Part shown: one piece after another, positions 4,426 to 62,920 of the stretch
Numbering within the stretch: the stretch's first letter is position 1
Layout: each line of letters begins with the position of its first letter
Source of the DNA: Eledone cirrhosa
Lineage: Eukaryota
DNA length: 64,000 nt
Direction: 5' to 3'
NCBI GenBank assembly: GCA_964016885.1
Contig: OZ024741.1
Location: 140,492,001 to 140,556,000 of the forward strand
The notes under the pieces: model-generated
The model's database searches: none
Told to the model about the DNA's origin: nothing
The model's input: the letters and a program-made list of their open reading frames with translations, nothing else
Program-made: the position numbers and the translations under genes

Positions 4426-4732
4426 ACTGTTCACCTGCCAAACTGTCAGAGCTCTGACTGATGAAGGGTGATACCCAGGAACATTAGTGTCTGCAGTTCT
4501 ATTCGAATGCCAACATAAAAGCAAGAATGAAGTGTTCATTCTACTGACATGGCTATAAAATTGAGACTTGTTTCGAAAATTGCAAATGAATCGAATGTTA
4601 TTATTAATATTCGAAAATCTCAGATTACATTTATTGTATTCAGCCATGTAGAGTTAAATTTTCTTTTTTATTTGAATTTGGCAAAGCCGGCCATTCATCG
4701 TTCGTATACAGGAAGCTGAATGGCCAGTCTGC

Positions 4733-4812
4733 TAATATGCAAATTTGGCTGATCATGGATCTACTAATATGCAGATCTCACTGATCAGCCAGTCTGCTAA
4801 TATGCAGATCAG
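4733..4812 (+). promoter_or_regulatory. Three tandem octamer/octamer-like boxes (ATGCAAAT, ATGCAGAT x2) upstream of a hammerhead
   Basis: ctaatATGCAAATttggctg (4737), ctaatATGCAGATctcactg (4769) and ctaatATGCAGATcaggccg (4802), spaced ~32 bp. Function is inferred only. Confidence 0.45.
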
Positions 4813-4886
4813 GCCGATCAGTCACTGTGTATTTTTGAAAATATCATATATTTTCACAAGCCCTGACAGTTTGGCAGGTGAACAGT

Positions 4887-4936
4887 GAACTGTACTGATG
4901 AAGGGTGTTACCCAGAAACATTAGTGTCTGCAGTTC
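4887..4936 (+). ncRNA. Type I hammerhead ribozyme motif, best family A copy
   Basis: Stem I gaactgta/tgcagttc (8 bp with one GU), CTGATGA 4895-4901, stem II gggt-gtt-accc, GAAA 4915-4918, stem III acat/gtgt, GTC 4926-4928. Confidence 0.85.
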
Positions 4937-5294
4937 TGTTCGCATGCCAAGATAAGAGAAAGGATGAAGTGTTTATTCTCGTGACATGGCTATAAAATTG
5001 ATACTTGTTTGCAAAATTGCAAACGAATCGAATGTTATTATTAATATTCGAAAACCTCAGGTTACAGATATATATATATATATATATATATATATATATA
5101 TATATATATATATGTGGGGGGGGGGTATGCGTGTGTGTGTGTGTATATATTGCATAGATATACCGGAAGTATTGAAATTTGAATCTTTTAAAAGAAGTGA
5201 ATCTTGAAATGTGCAATAAAATTATTAATGCTTAATCATACGTTACGAAATTTAGTACATAAATTATGTAATATTCATTCATTATTTATTCTCA

Positions 5295-58110: not shown

Positions 58111-61100
58111 AAAGAACAACATGTAATTTAAGTAAGGATATATTGTGGGATGAGCATGAATGAGTTAGATGAAAGGGAGAAAGAATAATGAATTGAGGAT
58201 GAATAATCTAACGTCAAAAAAATGTTTATGTTTACGAAGGATTTTTAGAAGGTGATATAGAGTAAGAATGTATTGTATTATGTAATAATTGATTCTATGT
58301 TAGGCAACAGTGAGAAAAGGTACATATTAGGGGTTATACATTAAAAGAAAAAGAGAAGAAAGGGAAGTGATAAATAGGAGCGATATAGAATGGTTAACAA
58401 GTATTATAGAATGAGTAACAAGTATTATATAATGTATAATAAAAACTTTGAAATAAGGTAGAAAGATGGGTATATTTTTAAAGAAGTGTATATATATATA
58501 TGCCTTTGAGAAAAAGATTCTAAATTGATAAGGTTTTTGGATATTAGCTGTATACTTTGTGGAATGTTTTGTGGAATTTATGCAAGCAGATAGAAAACAA
58601 GTCAGTGCGTCTATTTATTATATCTAAATTAGATATAATGGTAAATTTTTCATTTAGACAGAGATTGCAAATCTTGGATAGAGAACTGTTCAAGTATGGA
58701 GACGCAGAAGAAACCTTCTTCCAAAAGATGCTATATTTAATATTTTTGTCTTTCAAGGACCATATGAGTTCTGAAAGAGCTGTGTTGGTGCTTTTAAGTT
58801 TGTATTTAAAAGACGAATGATGGTTATAAAGACGAGCTTTAAAGGAGGTGGAAGTGGAGCCAAAATAGGTGAAGCAATTGGTGTCAGTTATAACTTTACA
58901 TTCGTAAATTAAGTTTTTATCAAGACAATGGTTGTTGAGAGGACATTTATTTTTGACAGGGCAACTGCAATTGCGATTAGAGAGATTATTAATGAGTGAC
59001 CTAGTGTTATCTATAGAAGGAATTGGATTGTTGAAGTTATTTGCGATAGGAATAATAGTTTCTTGATTTAGAATGGGATTAAGAACATTTAGCGAAGTTG
59101 TGTTTGACGTTGTATTTGGGTTTGCAGAAATTAGCCTAGGGTTTACAATGACGTCGGGAGTACTATTACTATTATTATGATATTCAGTTTTGGAAGGAAG
59201 AGATTTAGTATTTAGTATTTTATTGTTGTGTTTAGAGATAATGTTGGAAAGGTTGGAGGTTGTAGAATAAGAAAATGTTATAGTGTGTTTGTTAAATATT
59301 TTACTATAGATATGTGAGGGAGGGAAGCATTTATTTAAGGCACTAAAGAATAATTTAGGAATATTACTATTAATAGAGATGGAGAAAGGAGCATTATACC
59401 AGATTATTTTTTTGTATCTAGGTCTTTTATTAAAGTTATTGGAATGATCATGATTAATTATTCTACTGTAAGATCTTCTAGAATGTGTTTCTTTACTATA
59501 TTTGATTTTATCAGGATTGCCGGCTTTAGAAAGCGCGTTATTATAGTAATTGGCGTTAGCATCAAAGATCTTTTATTAGAAGAAAGGTTAGATATTCTTT
59601 TTCCAATATTACTAACTATAGCATTCTTGATATTAGTAGGATCGTTAGATTTAAAATTAACATAATTTAGGTTCTCATTGTTTTTATGGTAAGGGTAATA
59701 TAGGCCAGTGTCAAGATTAAGAGATACATCCAGGAAATTAGCTAGTTTGATGATGTTACCAAATTCAATTTTTAGGTTATGTTGGGTAAAGAGATTACGT
59801 ATATTGTTCTTAATAATATTAAGGTTAACTATGTTGCAATTTAAGATAGTAAAGAGTCCATCGTCACGATAAATTCCACCGCGAAGTTGAGGAATTGTCC
59901 GACTCAAAGAGTTCAAAATAAAGATACCAATTAAATCTGTCAATTGGGATGAATCGGATGCTCCCATTGTGATGTCGAAGTTGTTAGAGGTATCGGCTAT
60001 TACCCTTACCACAAAAACAATGAGAACCTAAATTATGTTAATTTTAAATCTAACCATCCTACTAATATCAAGAATGCTATAGTTAGTAATATTGGAAAAA
60101 AATATCTAACCTATCTTCTAATAAAAACATCTTTCATGCTATCACCAATTATTATAATAACGCGCTTTCTAAAGCCGGCTATCCTGATAAAATCAAATAT
60201 AGTAAAGAAACACATTCTAGAAGATCTTACAGTAGAATAATTAATCATGATCATTCCAATAACTTTAATAAAAGACCTAGATACAAAAACATAATCTGGT
60301 ATAATGCTCCTTTCTCCATATCTATTAATAATAATATTCCTAAATTATTCTTTAGTGCCTTAAATAAATGCTTCCCTCCCTCACATATCTATAGTAAAAT
60401 ATTTAACAAACACACTATAAAATTTTCTTATTCTACATCCTGCAACATTTCCAACATTATCTCTAAACACAACAATAAAATACTAAATACTAAATCTCTT
60501 CCTTCCAACACTGAATATCATAATAATAGTAATAGTACTCCCGACGTCATTGTAAACCCTAGGCTAATTTCTGCAAACCCAAATACAACGTCAAACACAA
60601 CTTCGCTAAATGTTCTTAATCCCATTCTAAATCAAGAAACTATTATTCCTATCGCAAATAACTTCAACAATCCAATTCCTTCTATAGATAACACTAGGTC
60701 ACTCATTAATAATCTCTCTAATCGCAATTGCAATTGCCCTGTCAAAAATAAATGTCCTCTCAACAACCATTGTCTTGATAAAAACTTAATTTACGAATGT
60801 AAAGTTATAACAGACACCAATTCCTTCACCTATTTTGGCTCCACTTCCACCTCCTTTAAAGCTTGTCTTTATAACCATCATTCGTCTTTTAAATACAAAC
60901 TTAAAAGAACCAACACAGCTCTCTCAGAACTCATATGGTCCTTGAAAGACAAAAATATTAAATATACCACCTTTTGGAAGAAGGTTTCTTCTGCGTCTCC
61001 ATACTTGAACAGTTCTCTATCCAAGATTTGCAATCTCTGTCTAAATGAAAAATTTACTATTATATCTAATTTAGATTCTATAATAAATAGACGCACTGAC

Positions 61101-62124
61101 TTGTTTTCTATCTGCTTGCATAAATTCCACAAAACATTCCACAAAGTATACAGCTAATATCCAAAACCTTATCAATTTAGAATCTTTTTCTCAAAGGCAT
61201 ATATATATACACTTCTTTAAAAATATACCCATTTTTCTACCTTATTTCAAAGTGTTTATTATACATTATATAATACTTGTTACTCATTCTATAATACTTG
61301 TTACCCATTCTATATCGCTCCTATTTATCACTTCCCTTTCTTCTCTTTTTCTTTTAACGTCTAACCCCTAATCTGTACCTTTTCTCACTGTTGCCTGACA
61401 TAGAATCAATTATTACATAATACAATACATTCTTACTCTATATCACCTTCTAAAAATCCTTCGTAAACTTAAACATTTTTTGACGTTAGATTATTCATCC
61501 TCAATTCATTATTCTTTACTCCCTTTCATCTAACTCATTCATGGTCATCCCACAATATATCCTTACTTAAATTACCTGTTGTTCTTTTTAATAATACATA
61601 TCAACATTTTCCTTCCATCGCACATATTATTAAACCCTTAAATATTATTCTTAATACATATTAACTTTTTCTTTCCATCACACATATTATTAAACCCTTA
61701 AATATTATTCTTAATACATATTAACATTTTCTTTTCATCGCACATATTATTAAACCCTTCAATATACAAACCTTAACTTTACATTATTTTTCTCTTCGTT
61801 AATTTTCAAATTCTTTTAATTCATACGTTATCTTCCAACGGTTTTCAACCTCTTTATGTAAAACAATATATCTTTCTCAGTTATAAGAGCTACCTCTCTC
61901 TCTCTATCAGCCATCTCTCCTCCTATCTCATCCTTCCTCATTATACTCCTCCCTCTCCACATTTTACTCTCATCTCCTCCTCTTTTTCATCCTTTCCACC
62001 CCCCACCCCTCAAAATAAATTTTTTTTTCAAATATCACACATCAATCTAAAACTACTTTTCATATGTTGATTTAAAACTGCACTATCCACAAGTGTTTTT
62101 TAACCTTCATATCATGTCTTCCTG

Positions 62125-62191
62125 TTTTATCTGATGAAAACACAAATGTTATTGCATGATGATATTTGTTTTTGAAATGCGCATAATAAAA
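62125..62191 (+). ncRNA. Minimal type I hammerhead motif in PLE pseudo-LTR
   Basis: ttttat-CTGATGA(62131)-aaacacaaatgttatt-gcat-gatgatatttgttttt-GAAA(62174)-tgcgc-ATA-ataaaa, with palindromic tgcgca in stem III. Confidence 0.8.
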
Positions 62192-62252
62192 TACATGGAA
62201 CTCTTTTAAACATCTTTTGGTCTTATATATTATATATATATATATATATATA

Positions 62253-62920
62253 TAAAAACAAATAACGAAACGAAATTAAATTTCGCTTCGTTTGTAACTC
62301 ACTTTTGTATGACTGACGCTTAAACAATTAAGTTAAAAATGTACATCCACATATGTATACTGAAATATTAGTATGCATATAAATACACACACGTGTACAT
62401 ATGTAGATGTACCGAGTTTTTCACTGGTCACCTTACTGTGAGTGTTCAGCTATTCTGTATGTAAACACACAGACAAACCAGTTTTTAGAGTCATACTGGT
62501 TTTAATTTCGTTTCGTTATTTGTTTTTATCGTCTCCGCTGAACCGGTACGTACTCACGCTCTATGCAAATTAGTCTGCCCACTACTAATTTTCATAGAAA
62601 AAGCATATAACGATATGTGCTTTTACGATTCTCTAGAAAGGCCGGAATAGGTAAATATTGCTGATGAGATGTAACAACATCGAAACTAGTCCAATGTTCC
62701 TGTCTGGCTTTCTGGAGAATAGAGGAAAGTTGGTTCCTCGAAAACCAGTATGACTCTAAAAAACGGTTTGTCTGTGTGTTTACATACAGAATAGCTGAAC
62801 ACTCACAGTAAAGTGTCCAGTGAAAAACTTGGTACATCTACATATGTACACGTGTGTGTATTCATATGCATACTAATATTTCAGTATACATATGGGGATG
62901 TACATTTTTAACTTAATTAT
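62253..62920 (+). mobile_element. Retrozyme-like non-coding element (family C), A'..B'-A-core-B layout
   Basis: 62253-62281 is the reverse complement of ~62501-62529, and 62323-62502 is the reverse complement of 62742-62918. The core has an octamer at 62563-62570, a hairpin and a hammerhead. It is TA-flanked on both sides. Confidence 0.75.
62655..62697 (+). ncRNA. Minimal type I hammerhead ribozyme motif
   Basis: atattg-CTGATGA-gatgt-aaca-acatc-GAAA-cta-GTC-caatgt: perfect 5 bp stem II, palindromic actagt stem III and a GUC triplet. Confidence 0.87.

What the first reader, a model, noticed from the sequence alone, without database searches (positions are those of the whole stretch)
4680..62700. 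Shared octamer box, hairpin and hammerhead architecture in three dispersed ~430-460 bp non-coding units (candidate promoter-bearing retrozyme system)
Seen: three TA-embedded elements with little overall similarity carry nearly the same 16-mer: tatgcaaatttggctg (4736), tatgcaaattaggctg (31765) and tatgcaaattagtctg (62562). Each is followed by an AT-rich hairpin (gaaaatat..atattttc; aaagtatatacttt; aaaagcatat..atgtgctttt) and then a type I hammerhead core, 75-98 nt after the nearest box (4895, 31841, 62661). Two show ~437 bp tandem periodicity. Known: ATGCAAAT is the POU/Oct site of snRNA distal elements, newt satellite 2 hammerhead repeats use an snRNA-type promoter, and metazoan non-LTR retrozymes are small hammerhead tandem units thought to be mobilised by PLEs. 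Inference: this is a family of self-promoting, self-cleaving, possibly circRNA-producing elements parasitising the PLE machinery whose remnants fill this window.
Basis: partly seen in the sequence, partly recalled or inferred. Interest (0 to 1): 0.85.

Follow-up and report, generated by a model that had tools for sequence, protein, structure and literature searches.

The report
Ribozyme repeats carrying host U6-type promoter
These three stretches are copies of very abundant small hammerhead-ribozyme repeats whose shared 'octamer' box matches the upstream box of this animal's own U6-type RNA genes, so the repeats likely carry their own promoter inside an RNA that is predicted to cut itself into circles and is likely pasted into the genome by Penelope-type enzymes.

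Summary
Each unit belongs to a high-copy tandem type I hammerhead family: A (437 nt period), B (437) and C (463). B and C are homologous; A is not detectably related. Box-plus-core pairs number about 38,000 genome-wide against 138 for reversed controls.

New result: the box is not a distal Oct site. It matches a box at -77 to -79 in the host's U6 (3 promoters), U6atac and RNase MRP genes, and it is absent from 8 of 8 U1/U2 promoters. The 'AT hairpin' holds a TATA-like word. At least six lineages with no other detectable similarity share the box. None of 80 other hammerhead-like sites has it.

Copies sit in (TA)n, often with inverted 5' pieces (82 of 175). Their 3' ends are internal, and they were copied straight through the cleavage site and promoter, which fits a circular or read-through template copied by a Penelope-type enzyme.

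Against plain Pol III: the TATA is 2-6 bp closer than in host genes, T5-T7 runs are read through, the host's distal element is missing, and no start-site signal was found. There is no RNA evidence. Verdict: a new variant of non-LTR retrozymes.

The parts
3389..5066 (.). Family A insertion: several direct and inverted pieces; main sense piece 4449-5066, 3' end joined to (TA)n
   Evidence: (L031 pieces converted to window coordinates)
4458..4491 (+). Upstream family A hammerhead core with GAAA changed to GGAA (predicted inactive)
4723..4821 (+). Three 33-bp repeats, each with a box copy (4736, 4768, 4801); the 4801 copy is the one in register with TATA and core
4847..4854 (+). TATA-like word (TATATTTT) inside the AT hairpin, box position 47; predicted start near 4877
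   Evidence: start site inferred from host spacing
4870..4950 (+). Family A type I hammerhead, long stem I; core 4895, predicted cut after 4928
   Evidence: region z -3.9; the lowest-energy fold pairs part of the core
31535..32161 (+). Family B insertion, 1.4 units, 3' end joined to (TA)n
   Evidence: L061
31765..31777 (+). Host U6-class box (20.2 bits, best site in the window); also the 5' arm of a hairpin
31808..31813 (+). TATA-like word (TATATA), box position 44
31830..31885 (+). Family B hammerhead with a 13-nt deletion in the stem I 5' strand (predicted inactive in this copy)
62252..62918 (.). Family C insertion: inverted piece 62252-62503 plus sense piece 62501-62918; both outer ends in (TA)n
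   Evidence: (L001)
62562..62574 (+). Host U6-class box (16.0 bits); 5' arm of a hairpin with an inverted imperfect copy
62606..62611 (+). TATA-like word (TATAAC), box position 45
62633..62715 (+). Family C type I hammerhead, intact; palindromic stem III (ACTAGT); predicted cut after 62691
   Evidence: z -3.8

Best explanation
These are non-coding tandem hammerhead repeats (non-LTR retrozymes) whose shared box and downstream TATA-like word match the host's U6-class promoter and likely act as a built-in promoter, giving RNA that would read into the next unit, is predicted to self-cleave and circularise, and is likely reinserted at (TA)n by a Penelope-type reverse transcriptase. SHOWN: tandem high-copy families; box identical in kind to the -78 box of host U6, U6atac and MRP genes; TATA-like word at box position 42-49; (TA)n targets; inverted 5' pieces; internal 3' ends; copies that run through the cleavage site and the promoter. 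INFERRED: initiation about 30 nt after the TATA, at the outer end of hammerhead stem I. Inferred too: Pol III is the likelier enzyme, and occasional read-through of the T-runs reaches the next hammerhead. The cut-to-cut monomer would then contain the next unit's promoter, which lets a gene-external promoter survive retrotransposition. A stable circle would be the main template, primed internally at U-rich sites. The hairpins over the box and TATA would be RNA-level folding added on top of a DNA-level constraint.
For: Host match: box at -77, -78, -79, -78, -78 and TATA at -30 in 5 of 5 Pol III-class promoters. A leave-one-out matrix finds the box as the best site in 300 nt in 5 of 5, and in 0 of 8 U1/U2 promoters (best 9.4 bits). 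T, A, T, G, A, T, A, G are invariant over 5 host and 6 element sequences. The AG at box positions 11-12 was not in my search pattern, yet it is present in D, E, G and H. Scale: 28,873 against 51 and 9,460 against 87. Independence: A, B/C, D, E, G and H have pairwise z of 5 or less with box and core masked. Family G has the exact host TATA position, 49. Specificity: the box lies upstream of 252 of 308 cores of these families and 0 of 80 other hammerhead-like sites. Mobility: 82 of 175 box-containing pieces have an adjacent inverted 5' piece; TA-joined 3' ends cluster (A 38 of 40, B 46 of 51, C 44 of 45) and only 1 of 193 falls in the cleavage-site bin. In tail-anchored A copies, 39 of 45 pass the cut site. 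Circular monomers fold at z -7.5 to -11 (approximate shuffles). PLE inversions and (TA)n bias: PMC8557442 passages.
Against: There is no transcript, start site or cleavage evidence. TATA sits at box position 44-47 in A-D against 48-50 in host genes, while insect Pol III spacing is described as precisely conserved (PMC1761439). H (0 of 2 copies) and one of 2 E copies lack a TATA word, and C's TATAAC is non-canonical; background is 7 of 41 bystander octamers. T5-T7 runs are read through in C, B2 and B3, whereas host terminators are T5-T10. The host distal element (13 of 13 snRNA-type promoters) is absent from the units (best 7.6 bits against 10.3-19.6). No 5' ends fall at the predicted start (0 of 32 at u70-83). 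The box centre is about 20 bp further upstream than a typical PSE, so the factor that binds it is unknown. D, E, G and H were found with a pattern that required the octamer. No autonomous partner was identified.
Confidence: 0.6

Rival explanations
1. Same anatomy, but transcription is by Pol II: the box is an activator or SNAPc site, and the shortened box-TATA spacing switches polymerase so that T-runs are ignored, as reported for newt satellite 2.
For: TATA is 2-6 bp closer than in host Pol III genes in A-E; T5-T7 runs are read through; newt satellite II uses an snRNA promoter with Pol II (PMC2220036 passage); a reference title seen says PSE position decides polymerase in Xenopus.
Against: The host's Pol II snRNA genes lack this box (0 of 8) and have TCAGT at -56 to -58 instead; family G keeps the exact Pol III spacing; TA-joined 3' ends almost never pass the last T-run before the box.
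Confidence: 0.2
2. The box is kept as an RNA element (a hairpin arm or protein site in the circle) or as a relic of a common ancestor, and the RNA comes from read-through of neighbouring host transcription.
For: The box forms a hairpin in B and C (z -3.2 and -5.9) and D (z -1.6), with a U-A to G-C change between C and D; the TATA word is also in a hairpin; no start-site signal.
Against: The 5' arm is nearly invariant and matches the host box, while the 3' arm differs between families; A's in-register box has no local hairpin (z 0.5); the host boxes are never transcribed and do not fold (z 0.1-1.0) yet have the same sequence.
Confidence: 0.13
3. The units are pseudo-LTRs of coding Penelope-like elements.
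For: PLE remnants are common here; Xenopus retrozymes are related to pLTRs (bioRxiv 2026.07.22.740005); 18 of 151 loci have a PLE-ORF hit.
Against: In 15 of those 18 a (TA)n tract separates element and ORF; the other three are an interruption of a broken fragment, an opposite-strand junction, and a hit 1.2 kb away on the opposite strand. The hammerheads beside the window's PLE ORFs are short-stem types without the box. Arrays of at least 37 pure units exist.
Confidence: 0.04

Closest known systems
Metazoan non-LTR retrozymes (Cervera and de la Pena 2020, PMC7229834; Li et al. bioRxiv 10.64898/2026.07.22.740005)
   Same: Non-coding tandem units with a type I hammerhead, GC under 45% (36-38% here), monomers to long arrays, co-occurrence with PLEs, highly self-paired predicted circles.
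   Different: The parts I read describe no promoter. Units are 330-480 nt, at or above the ~170-400 nt given for invertebrates. Here a host-matched promoter box is shared by six lineages, and insertion ends were mapped.
Newt satellite 2 (Coats, Zhang and Epstein 1994; not held; seen only as a passage and title in PMC2220036)
   Same: Hammerhead tandem repeat with an internal snRNA-type promoter.
   Different: Reported as Pol II. Here the box is specific to the host's Pol III class, is proximal (-78), and recurs in unrelated families. That the newt promoter includes an octamer is recalled, not checked.
Schistosome hammerhead satellite (passage in PMC2220036)
   Same: Hammerhead repeat with a Pol III promoter.
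   Different: Recalled as a tRNA-type internal promoter; no tRNA gene was found in this window and the box here is U6-type.
Type 3 Pol III promoters (U6, U6atac, MRP)
   Same: Upstream box plus TATA.
   Different: Spacing is 2-6 bp shorter in most families, there is no distal element, and the promoter lies inside the transcribed unit.

Membership tests
non-LTR retrozyme | Type I hammerhead in each repeat unit | tested here: met
   window copy B is broken, family copies are intact; Rfam support is weak
non-LTR retrozyme | Short tandem units, low GC, no ORF | tested here: met
   units 422-484 nt, GC 36-38%; no ORF of 100 aa or more overlaps the promoter-hammerhead parts
non-LTR retrozyme | Dispersed high copy number with a retrotransposition signature | tested here: met
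non-LTR retrozyme | Self-cleavage | not testable with these tools
   only a weak excess of 5' ends at the cut site (6 of 45), confounded by TGCA microhomology
non-LTR retrozyme | Expressed as circular RNA | tested here: inconclusive
   no suitable RNA run was examined; insertion ends fit a circle or an uncut multimer
PLE pseudo-LTR | Contiguous with an RT/GIY-YIG ORF | tested here: not met
   only five window ORFs were used as queries
Type 3 Pol III promoter of this host | -78 box | tested here: met
Type 3 Pol III promoter of this host | TATA at box position 48-50 | tested here: inconclusive
   met in G (49); 42-47 in A-E; absent in H
Type 3 Pol III promoter of this host | Distal element near -260 | tested here: not met
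Type 3 Pol III promoter of this host | Pol III-dependent initiation | not testable with these tools
   needs inhibitor or ChIP data
snRNA distal (Oct) element | Octamer about 200-250 bp upstream of host snRNA starts | tested here: not met
   host promoters carry a different motif at -257 to -288; the octamer is at -78 in the Pol III class

The most novel reading that the evidence does not exclude
At least six unrelated retrozyme lineages in one animal genome each acquired the host's gene-external U6-class promoter, placed it just 5' of the hammerhead, and propagate it inside a circular RNA. Most retuned the box-TATA spacing to get through their own T-runs. This would be a general answer to how animal retrozymes are transcribed, and it would give a natural library of tens of thousands of compact promoters.
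Probability: 0.3. Interest if true: 0.8.

Novelty: new variant of a known kind. Interest (0 to 1): 0.62.

Why it matters
Animal retrozymes are reported to be very highly expressed, but the papers I read do not say what drives them. This finding names a specific promoter, matched to the host's own genes, with predicted start sites, so the question becomes testable by point mutation. It also shows how a gene-external promoter, normally lost on retrotransposition, can be inherited through a tandem or circular RNA. The mapped ends give rare genomic evidence on the template used. As a by-product it defines this animal's U6-class promoter (-78 box, -30 TATA, distal element), which is useful for guide-RNA expression. 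My searches found no description of either; subscription papers and one unreadable supplement could hold one.

Tried and rejected
Expression: my one run search used L121:1-1500, which proved to be a PLE fragment beside the array, not the array. Its list says nothing about these elements; no RNA holder was listed. Laying 4 of those 24 runs on family A gave only short T-rich low-complexity matches in three RNA-guess runs, and real family A pieces in one run of unknown kind from another coded organism. This is no evidence on expression either way.

Shared SINE tail: 13 of 100 tail anchors began at u235-239, 12 of them visibly after SINE sequence, which suggested a shared 3' end. One search showed these are SINE insertions into A copies with duplicated targets, so the idea was rejected and the rows were dropped.

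Start-site mapping from 5' truncations gave no signal. Priming by TA microhomology alone was rejected: TTA/TAT words before about u260 (A), u330 (B) and u350 (C) are almost unused. B2's 12 ends in an internal (TA)n tract are ambiguous.

Family F (L165) was not counted: its box scores 7.1 bits and it has no TATA. Rfam miRNA hits are microsatellite artefacts. Window site 39060 scores 16.6 bits but has no core after it. Earlier-findings look-ups returned nothing.

Host loci not used as promoters: U6 L117-L120 and U6atac L171-L175 lack the -78 box and look like retrocopies. L106 duplicates L105, and L114's box is displaced by a SINE.
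Full report
Setting. The window is G000:C2:140492001-140556000 of a 3.0-Gb animal assembly, 34% GC and rich in (TA)n. The repeats look cephalopod-like to me; that is recalled and untested, and nothing below depends on it.

1. Observation. The three 16-mers are where stated and exceed chance. Cores, hairpins and two 437-nt periods are present. 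Corrections: unit 1's relevant box is the third of three 33-bp repeats (4801, 94 nt from the core); unit 2 has a 13-nt deletion that removes stem I; units 2 and 3 are homologous; unit 3's family is tandem with a 463-nt period. Rfam supports only unit 3, and weakly.

2. Families. Each unit has many genomic copies: 1,503-2,642 first-look candidates, with 40 scored per search at 91-99% identity for full-length matches. Exact tail words occur 5,223 times (A) and 4,468 times (C), with 0 for controls. TATGCAAAT followed 60-90 nt later by CTGANGA occurs 28,873 times (reversed control 51), and with a 91-121 nt gap 9,460 times (control 87). The listings exposed further families D, E, G and H. With box and core masked, B and C are related (z 14-22), while A, B/C, D, E, G and H are not detectably related (z 5 or less). 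Units are 422-484 nt and 36-38% GC; D, E and G look about 310-340 nt by eye. Intact hammerheads have long stem I regions (fold z -2.2 to -4.2). B, C and D have palindromic stem III, which suggests dimeric cleavage (inference; PMC7229834 passages describe the amphibian case).

3. What the box is. I compared the elements with the host's own snRNA-type genes. Three distinct U6 promoters, one U6atac gene and the single MRP gene carry TATG(C/G)(A/T)AAT(T/G)AG at -77, -78, -79, -78 and -78, with TATA at -30. A leave-one-out matrix recovers it as the best site in 5 of 5. In 8 of 8 U1/U2 promoters the best score is 9.4 bits or less; these have TCAGT-like words at -56 to -58 instead. I treated these five as real genes because they share a distal motif at -257 to -288 with U1/U2 (13 of 13). 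Four other U6 and five other U6atac loci lack the -78 box and look like retrocopies. Eight positions are invariant across 5 host and 6 element sequences, and the AG at positions 11-12, which was not in my pattern, is present in D, E, G and H. The 'AT hairpin' contains a TATA-like word at box position 47 (A), 44 (B), 45 (C, TATAAC), 45 (D), 49 (G) and 42 (one of two E copies); H has none. Background is 7 of 41 bystander octamers, an upper bound because that set may include host promoters. Adding 30 nt puts the predicted start at the outer end of stem I in A, B, C and D, but inside stem I in subfamily B3. In 1.23 Mb of loci (with overlaps), 252 of 308 cores of these families have the box and 0 of 80 other hammerhead-like sites do. 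The loci were chosen for these families, so only the zero is an unbiased figure. The box resembles an extended POU site (recalled) and lies about 20 bp upstream of a typical PSE centre (PMC1761439 introduction), so whether SNAPc or a POU protein binds it is open.

4. Results against a plain Pol III reading. Spacing is 2-6 bp shorter than in host genes except in G. The distal element is absent. Units contain T4-T10 runs comparable to host terminators of T5-T10, and 3' ends beyond T5-T7 runs show these are read through. The box is also a hairpin arm in B, C and D, though not in A or in host promoters, so RNA-level selection acts here too. No RNA data bear on expression.

5. Mobility. Using 228 of 264 loci (array-internal and overlapping ones dropped), TA-joined 3' ends cluster at two sites per family in the last part of the unit before the box: A 38 of 40, B 46 of 51, B3 28 of 32, C 44 of 45, B2 12 of 25 with 12 ambiguous. 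Only 1 of 193 falls in the cleavage-site bin. 82 of 175 box-containing pieces have an adjacent inverted 5' piece, and 39 of 175 extend past the previous cleavage site. Inversions and (TA)n bias are PLE traits (PMC8557442 passages). In a sample anchored on A's tail, and so blind to the promoter (100 anchors; 13 at the SINE-insertion site and 4 duplicates dropped), 5' ends decay smoothly. Six of 45 stop at the cut site (about 2.6 times the neighbouring rate, partly explained by TGCA microhomology), 0 of 32 stop at the predicted start, and 16 of 83 reach upstream of the box. The usual template therefore spans cut site and promoter, which means a circle or an uncut read-through multimer; these data cannot tell the two apart. 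Circular monomers fold at z -7.5 to -11 with 67-70% of bases paired. The units are not contiguous with PLE ORFs. No autonomous partner was found.

6. Mechanism. Most likely (0.6), the box and TATA of one unit start transcription at the hammerhead. Read-through reaches the next hammerhead, and the cut-to-cut monomer, containing the next promoter, circularises. A TA-targeting Penelope-type enzyme primes internally and copies more than one turn, regenerating promoter plus ribozyme. The Pol II variant (0.2), an RNA-only or relic role for the box (0.13) and a pseudo-LTR identity (0.04) are the rivals.

7. Known versus new. Non-LTR retrozymes and their link to PLEs are published: PMC7229834 (passages and sections 14 and 17; supplement unreadable) and bioRxiv 10.64898/2026.07.22.740005 (parts 1-3 of 5). 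An internal snRNA-type promoter is known for newt satellite II with Pol II, and a Pol III promoter for the schistosome satellite (PMC2220036 passage; the primary newt paper was not held). Passages of PMC13652810 and PMC4758252 had nothing on this. Eight searches found no report of retrozymes with a host U6-class box. Verdict: new variant of a known kind, interest 0.62.

Noticed in passing
L103, L104, L105, L170, L176; U1/U2 loci L091, L093, L115, L123-L128: Host snRNA promoter grammar: a shared distal TTACCTCCCTT-type motif at about -260; the Pol III class has an octamer-type box at -78 and TATA at -30; the Pol II class has TCAGT at -57 and also a TATA-like word.
   Followed up: yes
L053, L278, L282, L342, L356, L361, L365, L367, L370, L372, L376, L377: An abundant SINE inserts repeatedly at one site (ATTATTAAT) of family A with duplicated targets: 17 matches listed, 2 of them duplicates.
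   Followed up: partly
L174 (U6atac) and L117 (U6): A U6atac copy is joined directly to an inverted family A piece. A U6 copy is fused at its 3' end to the tail of a box-less hammerhead element and then (TA)n. This suggests the same enzyme copies these RNAs.
   Followed up: partly
window 54456 (+) and 56115 (-): A high-scoring box (15.6 bits) lies antisense inside a PLE terminal repeat, about 120 nt from its hammerhead; possibly an antisense promoter or chance.
   Followed up: no
window 25999-29746: Degenerate Helitron (Helitron_like_N, PIF1 and Pif1_2B hits).
   Followed up: partly
window 57460-62238, 46001-48622, 54299-56330: PLE remnants in large inverted-repeat arrangements; minimal hammerheads at 57567/62131 and 54334/56244.
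   Followed up: partly
window 30103-30171 (+): Weak HDV-like ribozyme match (31.2 bits, E 0.071, below gathering score).
   Followed up: no
L065, L070, L119, L161, L198, L210: Another small TA-embedded element with a GCCGTCGAAACGGC hairpin recurs beside many insertions; no hammerhead core was seen by eye.
   Followed up: no
G000:C602 and C1 near 5.74 Mb and 14.05 Mb: Long family C arrays, each homogeneous for its own subfamily variant.
   Followed up: partly
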